Below, one piece after another: positions 53,060 to 60,474 of a stretch of DNA of 64,000 nt (positions are counted from its first letter, which is position 1; every line of letters starts with the position of its first letter). The position numbers and the translations under genes are program-made. The stretch comes from Shigella phage SH7. Location: sequence record KX828711; one strand, written 5' to 3'. Under the pieces are notes generated by a model that saw only the letters and a program-made list of their open reading frames with translations, was not told the DNA's origin and ran no database searches.

Positions 53060-53089
53060 ACTATAACACAACACGAGGGACTTGTAAAC
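53060..53089 (-). promoter_or_regulatory. T4-type early promoter-like element
   Basis: Minus strand GTTTACA, 17 nt, TATAGT, overlapping the 3' end of the Alt paralog. Confidence 0.45.
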
Positions 53090-55146
53090 TACATTTTGAA
53101 CTTTTTAGACATTCCGTTAATGTTAACCAAAGAAGCTAAGATTTGAGAAACTTCGTTTTCCTCTTCTTTTGATTCTTCTACAAGGAATTGATTAAATCCA
53201 GCCATTGGACGAACTTCACCAGTTTCCATTAGATGGTCGCCATCATATACTGATTCTTCTAATTGTTCAGAAGGAGGAACGATTGTACCTTCGATTAGAT
53301 ACTTGTTATAAGCAGTTTCTTTCATAAAGTAAGTACTTACTTTATTAATCTTCAGTAAAATTCCACGTGGTAGAATAACTTCAGCTTCTGATGGAAATCC
53401 TGATAAATGACCCGGAACGATAACTTTAACTCGTTCAGCTCCTTTAATTACCATACCCACGCTAGTTTCAGCATCTTCATTAGCATATGTAGAATGACTA
53501 CCCATATGCATCAAATCTTCTGCATCAACGGAACCTTCTCCTTCACCAGAAAATACTGCTCCGGAATCATCTAAGGCCATATAATTTTTACCATACTCAC
53601 CAAAGATATTTGGTTTAAGTGATGTAGATACGAAGTTCTTGAAATAGAACATTTTATTTTCAATGTTATGACGCAAAGTTTTAAAAGTAACTTCTTGTCC
53701 ACGGTAAAGTGTAGTTCCTGGAGGAAGAACTGAACCTTTAGCAAACGCAGAATCCATAGTCTCGATGTGCTTAATAGCGCGCTCCATGTATTCTTCACGT
53801 GTAGAATCAGGTTTACCTAAAAGGAATGAGTTCATTTCAACATACGAATCTGCACAATAATCTTCAATTACATCAGATTCAGCCTGAGTCAATCCTTTTG
53901 GAGTTACTTCAGTGCTTGCATATTCATACGCCTGAGCAGCGGATTCATCAATTAATTTATAAATGCCATTCATGACAAATTGAATAATAGCTGTCTTTTC
54001 ATCTGGCGTAGCTTTAGAACCTTTAACTAAATCATTGACAATTTTCTTAATAACATCAAAGCTATTAGAAATATTAATGTCAGCAAGATCGCTTAAAATT
54101 TTATCAGTTTTATAATCAAAAAATTCTTTATTCTTTAAATATTCTTGAGAACTTTGATATGTTATATCGCTCTGCAACTTGATAGATGGATCACGTAAAC
54201 GTGCATGGGCTAATGCAATATGACTTCGGAAGCTTTCTAGTTCATAATCACTAGATTTAAAACGAGAAGCACTCCTCATATCACCGATAGCTCCTTTGCC
54301 GAAGTTTGAACCAATCTGAATAACGCCAGAGTTCATTGGTCCTTCTGCTTTATATACCGGAACTTTAGATTCAAACTCTTGATATTTCTTAGCAGCAAAG
54401 CTATCACCCTGAAGTGAAGCATCAACAGTAGAATATTGAGCTTGTGCTGCTAATCGACGACTAATTTTAGTTTTCTGAATAACAGCTTGATCCGTACGCT
54501 TATCATTTTCTAAAGCAATAGAAGCAGCAACTGCGACAGCTTTAGGAACAGCATTACCTGTTTTAACGTCTACATAAACATCACCGACTTTCGATTCAAC
54601 TTTTGTGAATAACTCAGTTGAAATAGGAGGTACACCTGGAATGTCTTCTAAATTGGCATTTTTACGGTAAACCATAATATATGCATATTTCTTATCATAG
54701 TCCCAGATTTCCTTTAAAAGAACATATCGACCTGCTCCTTTAGTACGTACTAAACGGTCAGCAATAACTTGCATTTGACGAGCAGCGCCATTTGTTTTAC
54801 TTTTTAGTACGCGGAATAGGCATGCATCAATTTTATACTGTTTCATTGTTTGAAGAGCAGTATCAAAAACAGCATTAATGACGCCAATTGGATTTCCACC
54901 CAAGTTTTTAAGCTTAACTAATGATAATTTTTCATTAACACCTATCATTACGATATGCATCATTTTGTCGCCTGGCTTAACGTTTTTATTCGTATCACCG
55001 CCAGAGGTGTATGTACAAAATCTAAATCCAGGAAGCACGCTTTCTTCACCGGCTTGAATAGCAAAAATTTGTGGTATTTTATGCTTAGGATTTAAGTTAA
55101 CAACCGGCGCCGAAGCGCCGTCAAATAATTCTGTAATAAGTTCCAT
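53089..55146 (-). CDS. Alt-family ADP-ribosyltransferase paralog (685 aa), tandem to alt
   Basis: Same N-terminus MELITELFD and conserved first 240 aa as the adjacent alt; divergent middle; C-terminal ART-like core with R (LYRGQ), STS (FVSTSL) and ExE (SEAEVILPRG); AAGGA RBS 3 nt after the alt stop. Confidence 0.85.
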   Translation of the reverse strand: MELITELFDGASAPVVNLNPKHKIPQIFAIQAGEESVLPGFRFCTYTSGGDTNKNVKPGDKMMHIVMIGVNEKLSLVKLKNLGGNPIGVINAVFDTALQTMKQYKIDACLFRVLKSKTNGAARQMQVIADRLVRTKGAGRYVLLKEIWDYDKKYAYIMVYRKNANLEDIPGVPPISTELFTKVESKVGDVYVDVKTGNAVPKAVAVAASIALENDKRTDQAVIQKTKISRRLAAQAQYSTVDASLQGDSFAAKKYQEFESKVPVYKAEGPMNSGVIQIGSNFGKGAIGDMRSASRFKSSDYELESFRSHIALAHARLRDPSIKLQSDITYQSSQEYLKNKEFFDYKTDKILSDLADINISNSFDVIKKIVNDLVKGSKATPDEKTAIIQFVMNGIYKLIDESAAQAYEYASTEVTPKGLTQAESDVIEDYCADSYVEMNSFLLGKPDSTREEYMERAIKHIETMDSAFAKGSVLPPGTTLYRGQEVTFKTLRHNIENKMFYFKNFVSTSLKPNIFGEYGKNYMALDDSGAVFSGEGEGSVDAEDLMHMGSHSTYANEDAETSVGMVIKGAERVKVIVPGHLSGFPSEAEVILPRGILLKINKVSTYFMKETAYNKYLIEGTIVPPSEQLEESVYDGDHLMETGEVRPMAGFNQFLVEESKEEENEVSQILASLVNINGMSKKFKM

Positions 55147-55149
55147 GAT

Positions 55150-57207
55150 TTATCCTTGAACGAACTTGTAAGGCATGTTTGTAATATCTATGCAAGACGC
55201 AATAATTCCAAGAGATGATTCTACTTTCTGTTTAACATTTGATGAAACAAATGATGCAAAGTCAACTCTGTCTTCTATTTCAATATCACCTGTCATTGCA
55301 ACCAATTCACCAGTTTCCATTAGACGGTCACCGTCATAAATGACTGATTCGGTGAGTTCTTCCGTAGTCATAACTTCAGCTTGAATAAGCTTGTTGTTAG
55401 TTTTGACTGTTCCATCATTGTAAGATGCATCAGTTATTTTATTAACTTTGACCATTAATCCACGTGGCAAAATGACTTCCATTTCATTTGAAGGCGCTAA
55501 ACTTCCGCCTGGTAAAACAACATTGACTTTATCAGCCCCAGTAATAACCCATCCAATTCCGACTAAATTATCGCTAGAATTAACAAGCCCTTCATCATTT
55601 TTATCGATAGAAATGTTTAGACGCTTTTCATCTGGTAAAACACCAACAGCTGAATCAGTCATCCAAGTACCAAAAATGTTTGGATATAATGATGTTGATA
55701 CAAAATTTCTAAAATAAAAAACTCGATTTTTTACCAATGCTTCATATATTGAAGGTAACATTCGCTGTGAACGATATAAAGTAATACCCTTTGGCAATCG
55801 ATCACCATTTTTAAAGGCTGAATCTAAATTATCGATGGCTTGTTCTATTTCAGGTGCTGTTAAAATACTTGTACGCTCATCTGGATTATATAATCCCAAA
55901 AGAGCATTATTCATGTCTACATATCCTGAACCTACATATTCACGAATTCCGCGTTTTTGCGCTGGCGTGTATTTAGATGAATCTTTATTTTCGACTATAG
56001 AATGCAATGACCATCCAACAGTAAGAGCATATCCACGTAATTCTCTTCGAATAATCTTTGTTTTTATTGCATTCCAAGAATTTTGCACTAACTCATTATT
56101 CGCAGTGTCTTGATTTAAATGCGAATGCTTGTTAATATTTCTTTCTAACCAAGCACCTTTATATTTTTCTAAAGTATCATCGACTATAGAAGCAATAGTT
56201 TCTAAAGTTTTTATTGAAGTAATAGATTCTTTTCGTAATCTTTCTAAAGCTTTATTTTTTATTTCTGTATTAACATCAGATTCTTTATCTTCAGGAATTA
56301 TAGAAGCTTCTCTGAATGCCATTCCAGCTGTAACACTATTAAGAGCATTCTCTAATGCAAATCCTGAAGTAGAAATAACAGTTAATTCATTAGCATCAGA
56401 AATTAAAGGAGCGTCAGCGGGTTTATTTAATTCTGCTGCTGAAGCCTCAAATTTTTGAAACATCGGCGTTTCAAATCTAGAAGATTCCAACGACTGACTT
56501 TGTGCAATTGCTCTACGGGAAATTTTAACTTTAACGATTACAGCTTGGTCAGAACGTTTATCATTTTCTTGTGCAATAGATGCTGCAATTGCCTCATTTT
56601 TAGTTACTTGGGCTCCAGTATCTTTATTGATATAAACATCACCGACCTTCGATTCAACTTTAGTAAAGAGCTCGGTACTAATTTCCGGAACTCCTGGAAT
56701 GTCTTCTAGTGATACATTTTTGCGATGTATAAGAATATATGCATACTTTTTATCATAATCCCAGAGTTCCTTAAGAAGGACGTATCTGCCACCTGAACGA
56801 CTACGGATAAGTCTATCAGCAATAACTTGAATTTGTCGAGCTTGGCCAGCAGTTTTAGACTTAAGAATACGAAGCATACAAGCATCAATTTTATACTGAC
56901 GCATCGTTTGCATTGCAACAGTAAAAACTGAATTGATATAATTAATTGGGCTTGGACCAAGACCTTTTAATTTAGCAATTGAACCTTTAGCAGTTAATGT
57001 AAAAGGAACAATATGCATCATTTTATCGCCCATTTTTAAATCGCGATTAGTATCACCTCCAGATGTATAGGTACATAAACGAAAGCCTGGTTGTTCAATT
57101 GCGTCATCGACATGAACTGAAAAAATTTGTGGTATCTTCTTCTTTGGATTTAAGTTTGTAATCGGAAGAGTAGTATCTTCGTCAAATAATTCTGTAATAA
57201 GTTCCAT
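55150..57207 (-). CDS. alt: Alt ADP-ribosyltransferase (packaged in the capsid, modifies host RNA polymerase)
   Basis: 685 aa from second ATG; recognised as T4 Alt-like; ART motifs LYRSQ, FVSTSL, NEMEVILPRG; late promoter upstream. Confidence 0.92.
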   Translation of the reverse strand: MELITELFDEDTTLPITNLNPKKKIPQIFSVHVDDAIEQPGFRLCTYTSGGDTNRDLKMGDKMMHIVPFTLTAKGSIAKLKGLGPSPINYINSVFTVAMQTMRQYKIDACMLRILKSKTAGQARQIQVIADRLIRSRSGGRYVLLKELWDYDKKYAYILIHRKNVSLEDIPGVPEISTELFTKVESKVGDVYINKDTGAQVTKNEAIAASIAQENDKRSDQAVIVKVKISRRAIAQSQSLESSRFETPMFQKFEASAAELNKPADAPLISDANELTVISTSGFALENALNSVTAGMAFREASIIPEDKESDVNTEIKNKALERLRKESITSIKTLETIASIVDDTLEKYKGAWLERNINKHSHLNQDTANNELVQNSWNAIKTKIIRRELRGYALTVGWSLHSIVENKDSSKYTPAQKRGIREYVGSGYVDMNNALLGLYNPDERTSILTAPEIEQAIDNLDSAFKNGDRLPKGITLYRSQRMLPSIYEALVKNRVFYFRNFVSTSLYPNIFGTWMTDSAVGVLPDEKRLNISIDKNDEGLVNSSDNLVGIGWVITGADKVNVVLPGGSLAPSNEMEVILPRGLMVKVNKITDASYNDGTVKTNNKLIQAEVMTTEELTESVIYDGDRLMETGELVAMTGDIEIEDRVDFASFVSSNVKQKVESSLGIIASCIDITNMPYKFVQG

Positions 57208-57230
57208 CATATCCTCTCTAGTGTTTATTC

Positions 57231-57238: not shown

Positions 57239-57243
57239 AAATT

Positions 57244-57261
57244 AAAGGCCCGAAGGCCTTT
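57244..57261 (-). terminator. hairpin AAAGGCC-TTCG-GGCCTTT after ORF 57260..57448
   Basis: 7-bp stem with tetraloop, T-run on minus strand. Confidence 0.55.
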
Positions 57262-57448
57262 AGTAATCTAGTGGTAAGAGAGTACGATATATTTCAAACT
57301 TTGGTCCTTTTTCATAGGCATCAAATGTTTCTGTAAATTTATTGTAAGCGTATGCATCTACAAATTCGAGAATGACTTGTGATACAGAAGTAGAAACATC
57401 TCCACCTTCTTTTTGAGCAATGACAATTGTTTCTAAGTAAGCTTTCAT
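57260..57448 (-). CDS. hypothetical protein (62 aa; T4 alt.1 position)
   Basis: ORF track; overlaps the stop of gene 30. Confidence 0.6.
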   Translation of the reverse strand: MKAYLETIVIAQKEGGDVSTSVSQVILEFVDAYAYNKFTETFDAYEKGPKFEIYRTLLPLDY

Positions 57449-58908: not shown

Positions 58909-59174
58909 TGTTCATCCTTTAGAGTTTGGTTTACAGCTCTATTATAAATCAATTCATCATTAAGCTCAGGCAAAGACCTATGATATGTAGTTCTAACTTT
59001 ATTTCCTTGCATCCAGTGCTTGACGTAAATGAAACCTTGCTCTACACATTTTTTAAAAATTCGTTCGTCTTTTTGAGCTCGAAATTCTGGATTGCATCTA
59101 AAAAATTGATTTACGTGACCGTAATCACGTGTAGTATTACCTTCATTTTCATAAATAGTGTGAACAACAAACAT
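58905..59174 (-). CDS. hypothetical protein (89 aa)
   Basis: ORF track; first gene downstream of ligase, overlapping stop/start. Confidence 0.6.
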   Translation of the reverse strand: MFVVHTIYENEGNTTRDYGHVNQFFRCNPEFRAQKDERIFKKCVEQGFIYVKHWMQGNKVRTTYHRSLPELNDELIYNRAVNQTLKDEQ

Positions 59175-60013
59175 TAGAATGCTCCTTGGAAAATATTATC
59201 ACCACCAGTAGGTCTATTATACAAATACTCTATGCCACCAGGTTTAATATAGTTCCATGTCTGAAACGGATGTGTCTGATATGGATGATATAGATGATTA
59301 TAAGGATTAAATCCAGGAGTTCTCCAGGTAGTGTTCCAAGGAAAAGAATCGTTTTTAACCATCTTCTCAATTAAATCTTTTATAGCTTTTTCACTATCAA
59401 AACTTTCTTTATTTTCCTTCGATGGAAAAAGCTTATTCTCTACATCATTCCATGTATAAACTCGCTGCGCAGTTTTTGGAATACTGTCACGCTCCCCTCG
59501 AGCCATCCAATAAACAGGAACATTTAATATTTCACTCGCGTGATCGCAGTGGTGAGCGAGATCGTCAATATAACAAATTACGTTATATTTCTCTTTTGCC
59601 TTTTTGAACAACTCTTCTTTTGAAGAATCATGACCACACATCAATACTTCTGAGAAGGCACCAGGAAAAAGAGCATTCAAATTAAATTGACGATTTAGCA
59701 GAGCGTCAATAGAATCACCCAATGCTGTAACAGCTACAAAATTATAATCTTCTTTTAATTTGTTAATTACACACAGGGCATCTTTATACGGAGACAAGTA
59801 ACGAATAAAATCTGAACGATTGTATTTTTCAATTAACTTGACACCAAGTTCTTCATCGCAATTAAAGAGCTTACCAGGAGAAATAAATTTTTCGTCCTGA
59901 ATCATTTTTAAAATATGTTCCAACGGAAGATTATATTTTTGGGCAAAATAAGGAAGACCTGATTGCCAGCTTAAACATACACCATCAATATCAGTTAAAA
60001 TAGTAGGCTTCAT
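59174..60013 (-). CDS. HAD-superfamily phosphatase-like protein with aromatic/Pro-rich C-terminal tail (279 aa)
   Basis: N-terminal HAD motif I ILTDIDGV and motif IV-like ICYIDD; C-terminal 80 aa rich in W, Y, P, H. Confidence 0.65.
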   Translation of the reverse strand: MKPTILTDIDGVCLSWQSGLPYFAQKYNLPLEHILKMIQDEKFISPGKLFNCDEELGVKLIEKYNRSDFIRYLSPYKDALCVINKLKEDYNFVAVTALGDSIDALLNRQFNLNALFPGAFSEVLMCGHDSSKEELFKKAKEKYNVICYIDDLAHHCDHASEILNVPVYWMARGERDSIPKTAQRVYTWNDVENKLFPSKENKESFDSEKAIKDLIEKMVKNDSFPWNTTWRTPGFNPYNHLYHPYQTHPFQTWNYIKPGGIEYLYNRPTGGDNIFQGAF

Positions 60014-60474
60014 AGAGAGTCTCTTAATAGGTTTAACACATCAATAAATTCAGCTTCAGTTAGTATTGTATCATCTTTTGTTAGACCACTAGCCATGCTG
60101 TGCTTCAAAACTTTTCCTTTCGAGGCTTGTAATGCATCACGAAAGCCCTTGTTTTGGATCGCTGCCTCAAAATACGCATTTGTGTATAATTCTTTCCAGG
60201 CTGGGGAGTATCTTGAAAACGGAACTCCAAGCCAGAAGAGGGTCCCACGGTCCTGAGCTCTAGTATAAGACCTTCCAGCTTGTTGGGCGGCAAGCCCGGA
60301 TAACCCAAATATACGTCTTTGTTGTTCAACATTTTTCACCTTACATCCTTGGAGGAATCCTTCGAGACCTCCAAATTGAATGCCATCCATAACGAAAGGC
60401 CAATAGGCGAAATTACTTAATGCACATGATGGCCACCTAAAATTACTTCTAATCTCTAACTCAGACATTTTCAA
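60010..60474 (-). CDS. YbiA/NADAR-family protein (154 aa)
   Basis: Segment RWPSCALSNFAYWPFVMDGIQFGGLEGFLQGCK aligns with the YbiA signature FSNFAAWPIKVDG...EHYFQAQK. Confidence 0.7.
   Translation of the reverse strand: MKMSELEIRSNFRWPSCALSNFAYWPFVMDGIQFGGLEGFLQGCKVKNVEQQRRIFGLSGLAAQQAGRSYTRAQDRGTLFWLGVPFSRYSPAWKELYTNAYFEAAIQNKGFRDALQASKGKVLKHSMASGLTKDDTILTEAEFIDVLNLLRDSL

What the first reader, a model, noticed from the sequence alone, without database searches (positions are those of the whole stretch)
59174..60474. NADAR/YbiA-like gene and HAD-like phosphatase gene in the ligase-proximal 30.x block, close to the Alt genes
ORF 60010..60474 carries the YbiA/NADAR signature (LSNFAYWPFVMDG ... 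LEGFLQGCK). Members of this family are N-glycosidases acting on riboflavin intermediates, and some remove ADP-ribose from guanine. ORF 59174..60013 has HAD motifs (DIDGV, YIDD) followed by an unusual 80-aa C-terminal tail rich in W, Y, P and H. Both lie about 3 kb from two ADP-ribosyltransferase genes, so a role in ADP-ribose or nucleotide metabolism, or in countering ADP-ribosylating host toxins, is a reasonable hypothesis. This is inference only.
Basis: partly seen in the sequence, partly recalled or inferred. Interest (0 to 1): 0.55.

Follow-up and report, generated by a model that had tools for sequence, protein, structure and literature searches.

The report
T4 anti-DarT NADAR plus HAD phosphatase
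These are phage T4 genes 30.3 and 30.2: 30.3 is the already characterised enzyme AdfN, which strips a host defence toxin's ADP-ribose marks off phage DNA, and 30.2 is a conserved, still untested phosphatase that most resembles nucleotide phosphatases.

Summary
The window is a T4-type phage (Tequatrovirus), and the two ORFs are genes 30.3 and 30.2.

**Gene 30.3.** The true CDS is 60010..60468, 152 aa. It is 149/152 identical to T4 gp30.3, now named AdfN. Published work shows AdfN is a NADAR ADP-ribosylglycohydrolase that removes DarT1-made ADP-ribose from guanine in phage DNA and defeats the DarTG1 defence (PMC11825919, PMC11125620). E36, K43, H123 and the C-terminal helix are all intact. My model matches only the three solved NADAR structures.

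**Gene 30.2.** It has a HAD fold and all four catalytic motifs are invariant. Its wider family connects to 5'(3')-deoxyribonucleotidases (NT5C). The last ~60 residues are a disordered, fast-evolving tail that many homologues lack. I found no paper on it.

**Linkage.** Across relatives, 30.2 stays beside the DNA ligase gene (68/79 loci) more often than beside adfN (32/79). Neither gene shows a functional tie to Alt.

**Verdict.** One open lead remains: AdfN needs an unidentified T-even protein for full activity, and 30.2 is an untested candidate. Interest is low.

The parts
60010..60468 (-). Gene 30.3 = adfN (anti-DarT factor NADAR), 152 aa. Catalytic codons: E36 at 60361-60363, K43 at 60340-60342, and the family-specific H123 at 60100-60102.
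   Evidence: 149/152 identical to T4 gp30.3. The T4 annotation starts at the ATG. Pfam PF08010, E 3e-69. AF2 model pLDDT 93.6; its only significant or probable PDB matches are YbiA 2b3w, G. lovleyi DarG1 NADAR 8bat and Phytophthora NADAR 8bau. E36 and H123 are invariant and K43 nearly invariant in 82 homologues. Function shown for the T4 protein in PMC11825919.
59174..60013 (-). Gene 30.2, 279 aa: HAD-superfamily phosphatase-like protein with a variable C-terminal tail.
   Evidence: 96% identical to T4 gp30.2. phrog_420, function unknown, E 2e-92. Homologues in 1438 phage records.
59429..60013 (-). HAD catalytic domain with a helical C1-type cap (residues 1-195). Motif I is D8-x-D10 (59984-59992), motif II is T96 (59726-59728), motif III is K132 (59618-59620) and motif IV is D150-D151 (59561-59566).
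59174..59428 (-). C-terminal extension of gp30.2 (residues 196-279 plus the stop codon): a charged helix at 200-220, then a disordered region rich in W, Y, P and H that contains TWRTPG and GGIEYLYNRPTGG.
   Evidence: pLDDT 39-56 after residue 221. About one third of homologues have a tail of 15 residues or fewer, and the rest fall into several classes. dN/dS 0.18-0.48, so the tail is under weaker constraint but still coding.
60010..60013 (-). ATGA overlap of the adfN stop codon with the 30.2 start codon.
   Evidence: Read directly from the sequence. The same overlap is seen in 14 close viral loci, L081-L087 and L089-L094 (L088 is cut at the contig end), and in L128. Similar overlaps join 30.2/30.1 and 30.1/30, so it is not specific to this gene pair.
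57243..57262 (-). Terminator-like hairpin downstream of alt.1 and the ligase gene. It marks the likely 3' end of the 30.x/ligase block and separates that block from alt.
   Evidence: Consensus scan: 8-pair stem followed by a T-rich tail. This is a pattern match only, and the count of such sites in the region is not above the shuffled expectation.

Best explanation
Two adjacent early-region genes of a T4-type phage, with different levels of knowledge.

**(1) Gene 30.3 is AdfN.** It is a minimal NADAR-fold ADP-ribosylglycohydrolase. When the host toxin DarT1 ADP-ribosylates guanines in phage DNA and blocks replication, AdfN cleaves the ribose-guanine bond, using E36, K43 and the phage-specific H123. 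This releases ADP-ribose, restores normal DNA, and lets the phage grow on DarTG1 hosts. The function is shown experimentally for the 98% identical T4 protein and is inferred by identity for this copy.

**(2) Gene 30.2 is most likely an active, Mg2+-dependent HAD phosphomonoesterase acting on a small molecule.** It has a C1 cap. Its wider family grades into the NT5C 5'(3')-deoxyribonucleotidase group, so the substrate is probably a (deoxy)nucleoside monophosphate. Its most likely role is in shaping or cleaning the nucleotide pool during infection. The fold and catalytic motifs are shown here; the activity, substrate and role are inferred.

**The tail and the linkage.** The disordered C-terminal tail is an optional, lineage-specific appendage, possibly a docking peptide. 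The juxtaposition of the two genes with each other and with alt reflects T4-family synteny, not a demonstrated pathway.
For: **AdfN:**
- 149/152 identical to T4 AdfN, with all named residues and the C-terminal helix present.
- The model matches only NADAR structures. The profile of homologues hits YbiA at E 0.0077.
- Genetics and biochemistry are in PMC11825919, PMC11125620 and PMC12945103.

**gp30.2:**
- The DxD, T, K and DD motifs are invariant or nearly so.
- Strong purifying selection on the domain.
- An exhaustive profile search finds 1271 cluster representatives, mostly about 200 aa. Of 134 distant members, 34 hit Pfam NT5C (best E 4e-10) and 13 hit HAD Hydrolase.
- The broadened profile aligns full-length to 3bwv, a putative 5'(3')-deoxyribonucleotidase, at E 7.8e-7. 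Yeast pyrimidine nucleotidase SSM1 and mitochondrial dNT follow.
- In distant viral relatives the gene sits next to MazG, IMPDH/GMP-reductase-family and HIT genes.

**Synteny:**
Against: **gp30.2:**
- The protein itself gives no significant hit to any HAD or NT5C model.
- The neighbour evidence comes from a handful of distant loci.
- T4 is thought to recycle dNMPs from host DNA (general knowledge), so a broad dNMP phosphatase would seem wasteful. A narrow specificity would have to be assumed.

**AdfN:** no activity was measured for this allele. It differs from T4 at three positions: Y22Q, T69A and M125I.
Confidence: 0.75

Rival explanations
1. gp30.2 is functionally coupled to AdfN. It would be the unidentified T-even protein that AdfN-T4 needs for full activity. 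It could act as a physical partner, or by disposing of ADP-ribose-derived or ADP-ribosylated nucleotide products.
For: - PMC11825919 reports that AdfN-T4 does not rescue uninfected E. coli from DarT1 and only weakly rescues T5 and Bas25. DNA modification is excluded as the reason, and an additional T-even protein is proposed.
- adfN and 30.2 overlap by ATGA.
- adfN lies just upstream of 30.2 on the same strand in 32 of 79 HAD loci, including distant lineages.
- The two genes have almost the same distribution over phage records and host genera.
- RB69, in which ectopic AdfN-T4 works fully, has a 30.2 gene.
Against: - 61 of 80 adfN loci have no 30.2-type gene within 6 kb.
- In several T4-like genomes the two genes are about 55 kb apart.
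- ATGA overlaps are common throughout this block.
- Shared distribution is expected for any two near-core Straboviridae genes.
- No interaction was predicted or measured.
- NADAR hydrolysis needs no phosphatase step.
Confidence: 0.1
2. gp30.2 is a DNA- or RNA-end 3'-phosphatase that prepares ends for the adjacent DNA ligase, forming an end-healing and sealing pair.
For: - The ligase gene lies next to the HAD gene in 68 of 79 loci. In three distant loci the order is reversed but the genes remain adjacent.
Against: - The model has a roughly 70-residue helical C1 cap over the active site. From general knowledge of HAD enzymes, this goes with small substrates, whereas polynucleotide phosphatases are capless.
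- Sequence links go to NT5C, not PNK.
- T4 already has PseT.
- Adjacency to the ligase is confined to T4-like genomes, where synteny is generally conserved.
Confidence: 0.08
3. One reading: both genes belong with the Alt ADP-ribosyltransferases in one ADP-ribose pathway, for example by reversing or processing Alt-made modifications.
For: Physical proximity only, at 2-4 kb.
Against: - A terminator-like hairpin lies between the blocks.
- In some relatives alt is on the opposite strand.
- adfN is relocated far from alt in many genomes.
- The T4 record annotates Alt as a virion-packaged RNA polymerase ADP-ribosyltransferase; that it modifies arginine is general knowledge.
- The T4 NADAR removes guanine-linked ADP-ribose from DNA and does not counter thymidine-ADP-ribosylating DarTG2. 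Protein-arginine ADP-ribose was not addressed in what I read.
Confidence: 0.03
4. gp30.2 is a catalytically dead HAD-fold scaffold whose function resides in the tail.
For: The tail carries short motifs conserved within classes, such as GTGIEYLxxQPT and DLRAYY.
Against: - All catalytic residues are invariant across 94 homologues.
- Domain dN/dS is 0-0.05.
- About one third of homologues lack the tail altogether.
Confidence: 0.04

Closest known systems
AdfN of phage T4 (gp30.3; 'phage NADAR' family, Pfam PF08010)
   Same: 98% identical. Same length, same genomic position, same catalytic residues E36, K43 and H123, and an intact C-terminal helix.
   Different: Three substitutions: Y22Q, T69A and M125I. 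This allele has not been tested.
DarG1 antitoxin NADAR (G. lovleyi 8bat) and E. coli YbiA (2b3w)
   Same: Same YbiA/NADAR fold and the same conserved Glu/Lys pair. All remove ADP-ribose from guanine (PMC11125620, PMC12945103).
   Different: AdfN is the bare core without the N-terminal extension of DarG1. It has His where DarG1 has Asp and YbiA has Glu. It is an orphan with no DarT partner, and it does not protect uninfected E. coli.
5'(3')-deoxyribonucleotidases of the HAD superfamily (Pfam NT5C; human cdN/mdN; S. epidermidis 3bwv)
   Same: Same fold with a helical C1 cap, the DxD nucleophile/acid pair and the DD metal site. Distant members of the 30.2 family score above the NT5C gathering threshold (for example P0320, 34.6 bits against a cut-off of 24.8), and 34 of 134 match NT5C at E<=0.001. 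The family profile aligns full-length to 3bwv.
   Different: gp30.2 itself does not reach NT5C significance. Identity is only 15-20%. gp30.2 has a long disordered tail, and its substrate is unknown.
Phage T5 Dmp, deoxynucleoside-5'-monophosphatase
   Same: A phage-encoded dNMP phosphatase, annotated as such in NC_005859, with a DLDGT motif like HAD motif I. It is a functional precedent.
   Different: There is no detectable profile similarity beyond motif I (hhalign probability 4.6%) and no Pfam hit. It is not a demonstrated homologue.
T4 polynucleotide kinase/phosphatase (PseT), phosphatase domain
   Different: PseT acts on polynucleotide 3' ends and lacks the C1 cap (general knowledge). gp30.2 has a large cap.

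Membership tests
NADAR superfamily, phage NADAR (gp30.3/AdfN) family | YbiA-type fold: a helical core flanked by small sheets. | tested here: met
   AF2 model pLDDT 93.6. Foldseek hits to 2b3w (E 1e-4, TM 0.66), 8bat and 8bau (probability 0.96-0.98), and nothing else above noise.
NADAR superfamily, phage NADAR (gp30.3/AdfN) family | Conserved catalytic Glu and Lys in the E-G-F-x-Q-x-x-K segment (E36 and K43 in T4 numbering). | tested here: met
   Both are present. E36 is invariant and K43 at least 90% conserved in 82 homologues. The segment aligns with the SEHYFQAQK segment of YbiA.
NADAR superfamily, phage NADAR (gp30.3/AdfN) family | His at the family-distinguishing position in the last strand (Glu in YbiA, Asp in DarG1-type). 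| tested here: met
   H123 is invariant in the alignment. The rule is stated in PMC11125620 and PMC12945103.
NADAR superfamily, phage NADAR (gp30.3/AdfN) family | Hydrolysis of guanine-linked ADP-ribose, and protection from DarTG1. | not testable with these tools
   Shown for the 98% identical T4 protein (PMC11825919). Inferred here by identity.
HAD (haloacid dehalogenase-like) superfamily, phosphatase type | Rossmannoid core with the four motifs at the strand ends: I DxDx[TV], II S/T, III K/R, IV DD or similar. | tested here: met
   D8-I-D10-G-V follows strand 4-7. T96 ends strand 91-96. K132 precedes helix 133-142. D150-D151 end strand 145-150.
HAD (haloacid dehalogenase-like) superfamily, phosphatase type | Structural similarity to solved HAD enzymes. 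| tested here: met
HAD (haloacid dehalogenase-like) superfamily, phosphatase type | Significant match to a curated HAD sequence model. | tested here: not met
   gp30.2 itself has no Pfam or NCBIfam HAD hit at E<=1. The link exists only through relatives: 13 of 94 close homologues and 13 of 134 distant ones hit PF00702.
HAD (haloacid dehalogenase-like) superfamily, phosphatase type | Mg2+-dependent phosphoryl transfer through an aspartyl-phosphate intermediate. | not testable with these tools
   Needs an enzyme assay.
5'(3')-deoxyribonucleotidase family (Pfam NT5C, PF06941) | Sequence membership in the family model. | tested here: inconclusive
   gp30.2 has no hit. Six of 94 close homologues and 34 of 134 distant homologues hit NT5C, best E 4e-10. 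The family profile matches 3bwv at E 7.8e-7. gp30.2 is therefore a neighbouring or outlying clade, and membership is not proven.
5'(3')-deoxyribonucleotidase family (Pfam NT5C, PF06941) | Hydrolysis of dNMPs. | not testable with these tools
   Needs an enzyme assay.

The most novel reading that the evidence does not exclude
gp30.2 is the missing T-even-specific factor that AdfN-T4 needs for full anti-DarTG1 activity. The two translationally coupled genes would then form a two-component counter-defence module. In one version the HAD enzyme dephosphorylates ADP-ribosylated dGMP or other ADP-ribose-derived nucleotides, so that they cannot re-enter phage DNA synthesis. In another, its variable tail tethers the pair to the replication machinery.
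Probability: 0.1. Interest if true: 0.55.

Novelty: already known. Interest (0 to 1): 0.2.

Why it matters
The main point of the finding is that a phage NADAR counters an ADP-ribosylating host toxin. That was published in 2024-2025 for the T4 orthologue, so this window adds one more intact allele and nothing new in kind.

The residual value lies in gene 30.2:
- It is present in about 1400 sequenced T4-like phages and is under strong purifying selection, yet I found no paper that studies it.
- It is shown here to be a HAD phosphatase of nucleotidase type.
- It is a cheap, testable candidate for an open question left by the AdfN paper: which T-even protein potentiates AdfN?
- It could also be a new enzyme of phage nucleotide-pool control.

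Tried and rejected
- **Direct scans of 30.3.** Pfam, NCBIfam and PADLOC gave no NADAR or DarG hit. phmmer against PDB gave only noise. The assignment had to go through profiles of homologues and structure prediction.
- **Direct scans of 30.2.** These gave only noise: thiamin pyrophosphokinase at E 0.09 and 0.015. I rejected these hits because they are far below the cut-offs and are contradicted by the fold.
- **T5 Dmp as a homologue.** Rejected: hhalign probability 4.6%, covering motif I only.
- **Promoter scan.** Promoter-like sites are no more frequent than in shuffled sequence (19 found against 20.6 expected), so I draw no promoter conclusions.
- **Literature.** A search for gp30.2 found no paper that uses the term. 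The AdfN paper mentions gene 30.2 only once, in a figure legend. A search for deoxyribonucleotidase in T4-like phages found nothing about this gene.
- **Fusion proteins.** The N-terminal parts of HAD-family fusion proteins (P0257, P0306, P0207, P0248) had no Pfam domain that could hint at function.

Full report
**Where we are.** The 2.1 kb around the finding is 97-99% identical to many Tequatrovirus genomes such as phage 4E10 and RB14. In those records the ORFs are annotated as genes 30.1-30.5 next to DNA ligase gene 30. Against the T4 reference record the order on the minus strand is 30.9 ... 30.4, 30.3, 30.2, 30.1, 30 (ligase), alt.1, alt. The window has the same order. The one difference is a complete second alt paralogue (53089..55146) where T4 keeps only the remnants alt.-1 and alt.-2.

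**Checking the observation.** Both ORFs exist as described.
- The 465-nt ORF 60010..60474 begins at a TTG. T4 annotates the ATG two codons downstream, so the gene is 60010..60468 and encodes 152 aa. With that start the published catalytic residues fall at E36 and K43.
- The quoted peptide strings are all present.
- The stop codon of 30.3 overlaps the start of 30.2 (ATGA). 30.2/30.1 and 30.1/30 overlap in similar ways.
A direct Pfam scan gives PF08010 'Phage_30_3' (E 3e-69) and no NADAR hit for 30.3, and nothing for 30.2. NCBIfam, PADLOC and single-sequence PDB searches are equally silent. More sensitive methods were needed.

**Gene 30.3 is AdfN.** A literature search for 'gp30.3' led to three papers.
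- Johannesman et al., Nat Commun 2025 (PMC11825919), mapped resistance of T-even phages to the DarTG1 toxin-antitoxin defence to gene 30.3 and renamed it adfN. They showed it is necessary in T4 and T2, and sufficient for RB69. The E36A and K43A mutants and a C-terminal truncation weaken it. Purified protein removes ADP-ribose from DarT1-modified DNA.
- Two Toxins papers (PMC11125620, PMC12945103) tested the T4 'phage NADAR' in vitro. They describe the family as a bare NADAR core with His in place of the Glu or Asp found in other families.
- The window's protein is 149/152 identical to T4 AdfN, with E36, K43, H123 and the whole C-terminal helix intact.
- Independent checks agree. In an alignment of 82 homologues E36 and H123 are invariant and K43 nearly so. 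The profile hits YbiA in PDB (E 0.0077). The AlphaFold model (pLDDT 93.6) matches YbiA 2b3w, the G. lovleyi DarG1 NADAR 8bat and the Phytophthora NADAR 8bau, and nothing else.

**Gene 30.2 is a HAD phosphatase-like protein.**
- I collected 100 homologues. In 94 of them D8, D10, K132, D150 and D151 are invariant and T96 nearly so. These are the four HAD motifs, including the DxD pair that marks phosphotransferases (general knowledge of the superfamily).
- The model is very confident for residues 1-195 (pLDDT at least 94). Each motif sits at the expected strand end, and a six-helix insertion (residues 16-86) follows motif I, which is a C1 cap.
- Foldseek finds 103 PDB hits at E<=1e-3. All 50 listed are HAD-fold entries, led by cytosolic 5'(3')-deoxyribonucleotidase.

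**Which kind of HAD.**
- An exhaustive profile search found 1271 cluster representatives at E<=1e-3, mostly about 200 aa, which is the domain alone.
- Of 134 distant members, 34 hit Pfam NT5C (best E 4e-10), 13 hit HAD Hydrolase and 8 hit HAD_2. In a separate scan of ten members, two pass a curated cut-off: P0320 for NT5C and P0300 for Hydrolase.
- A profile that includes them aligns full-length to 3bwv at E 7.8e-7. Yeast pyrimidine nucleotidase SSM1, XMP phosphatase and mitochondrial dNT follow.
- In distant viral relatives (30-33% identity) the gene sits beside a MazG-type NTP pyrophosphohydrolase, an IMPDH/GMP-reductase-family gene, or near a HIT hydrolase.
- A few database depositors already label homologues as 'deoxyribonucleotidase' or 'HAD hydrolase'.
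- I therefore favour a (deoxy)nucleotide monophosphatase, at moderate confidence. Phage T5 Dmp is a functional precedent, but it is not detectably homologous beyond motif I.

**The tail.**
- Residues 200-220 form a predicted charged helix, and residues 221-279 are disordered.
- About one third of homologues have a tail of 15 residues or fewer. The rest fall into several classes, each with its own conserved terminal peptide: GTGIEYLxxQPT (the window's class, GGIEYLYNRPTGG), DLRAYY, PDYVLLNKVxANDS and TALLGMAxLPIITG.
- Against close relatives, dN/dS is 0.18-0.48 in the tail and 0-0.05 in the domain.
- RB69's tail diverges after TWRTPG.
- The tail is real coding sequence under weak constraint. 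A docking function is possible but untested.

**Are the genes linked to each other, to the ligase, or to Alt?**
- Of 80 viral loci that encode an AdfN relative, 19 have a 30.2-type gene within 6 kb.
- Of 79 loci that encode a 30.2 relative, 32 have adfN just upstream on the same strand, and 68 have the ligase gene adjacent.
- Several T4-like genomes, including the 175,774-bp contig that matches Erwinia phage Cronus in length, carry adfN about 55 kb from 30.2 (coordinates).
- Both genes occur in about 1450-1500 phage records with almost the same host-genus distribution. That is expected for near-core genes of Straboviridae.
- alt follows the ligase in most loci but is on the opposite strand in some. 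In the window a terminator-like hairpin (57243-57262) lies between alt.1 and alt.
- I conclude that proximity to alt is synteny. The 30.2-ligase adjacency is the most conserved link, but it is confined to T4-like genomes. The adfN-30.2 adjacency is common but dispensable.

**The open lead.** The AdfN paper reports that AdfN-T4 does not protect uninfected E. coli and only weakly rescues T5 and Bas25. It rules out DNA modification as the reason and proposes an unknown T-even protein. gp30.2 is translationally coupled to adfN, is present in RB69 where AdfN-T4 works fully, and is found across the same phage family. My evidence does not exclude it. The weak gene linkage outside Tevenvirinae and the lack of any chemical need for a phosphatase argue against it. 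I put it at about 10%.

**Verdict.** This is a correct reading of two real genes. The interesting half is already published, and the other half is a new, uncharacterised member of a very well known enzyme superfamily.

Noticed in passing
window 60105..60332 (-): A 75-aa ORF lies in a different reading frame inside adfN. It corresponds to the T4 annotation 30.3' ('internal translation, in a different reading frame, within gene 30.3'), and it is intact in this phage.
   Followed up: partly
window 53089..55146 (-) and 55150..57210 (-): There are two full-length tandem alt paralogues of 685 and 686 aa. T4 has one alt plus the short remnants alt.-1 and alt.-2, which its record describes as an old partial duplication. 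The close relatives L081 and L084 also carry two long copies.
   Followed up: partly
proteins P0107, P0113, P0115, P0117, P0148; L092 5636-6001: Many natural Tequatrovirus and Mosigvirus isolates carry truncated or fused adfN alleles of 86-126 aa, for example phages SV76, vB_Eco_NR1, UGJNEcP4 and vB_EcoM-RPN226. These resemble the RB69 frameshift allele, so the phages may be DarTG1-sensitive.
   Followed up: no
L095-L115 versus L027, L029, L035, L051, L065, L066, L070 (same contigs): In Klebsiella-, Enterobacter- and Erwinia-type T4-like genomes the adfN homologue (about 40% identity) lies about 55 kb from the 30.2-ligase block. In Tevenvirinae and several Aeromonas- and Acinetobacter-type genomes it lies immediately upstream.
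   Followed up: partly
gp30.2 homologues: The C-terminal tails fall into at least four classes. Each ends in its own conserved short peptide: GTGIEYLxxQPT, DLRAYY, PDYVLLNKVxANDS or TALLGMAxLPIITG. This pattern suggests lineage-specific docking motifs.
   Followed up: partly
phrog_652; P0131 and P0132; PMC11125620 methods: The PHROG profile that contains AdfN is 296 positions long, and AdfN matches only positions 126-272. Some homologues are 201 aa. The Toxins 2024 paper lists its T4 gp30.3 construct as residues 1-208, although the T4 gene encodes 152 aa. I could not explain this discrepancy.
   Followed up: no
L157 6694-7002, L152 6107-6415, L153 6939-7271; L158 6750-7613: In distant non-Tevenvirinae viral contigs, the 30.2-type HAD gene is followed by a small MazG-type nucleotide pyrophosphohydrolase gene or by an IMPDH/GMP-reductase-family gene. 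Together they could form an NTP to NMP to nucleoside route.
   Followed up: partly
P0257 (591 aa), P0306 (660 aa), P0207 (430 aa), P0248 (365 aa): These are long proteins in which the 30.2-type HAD domain is fused to large regions with no Pfam match.
   Followed up: partly
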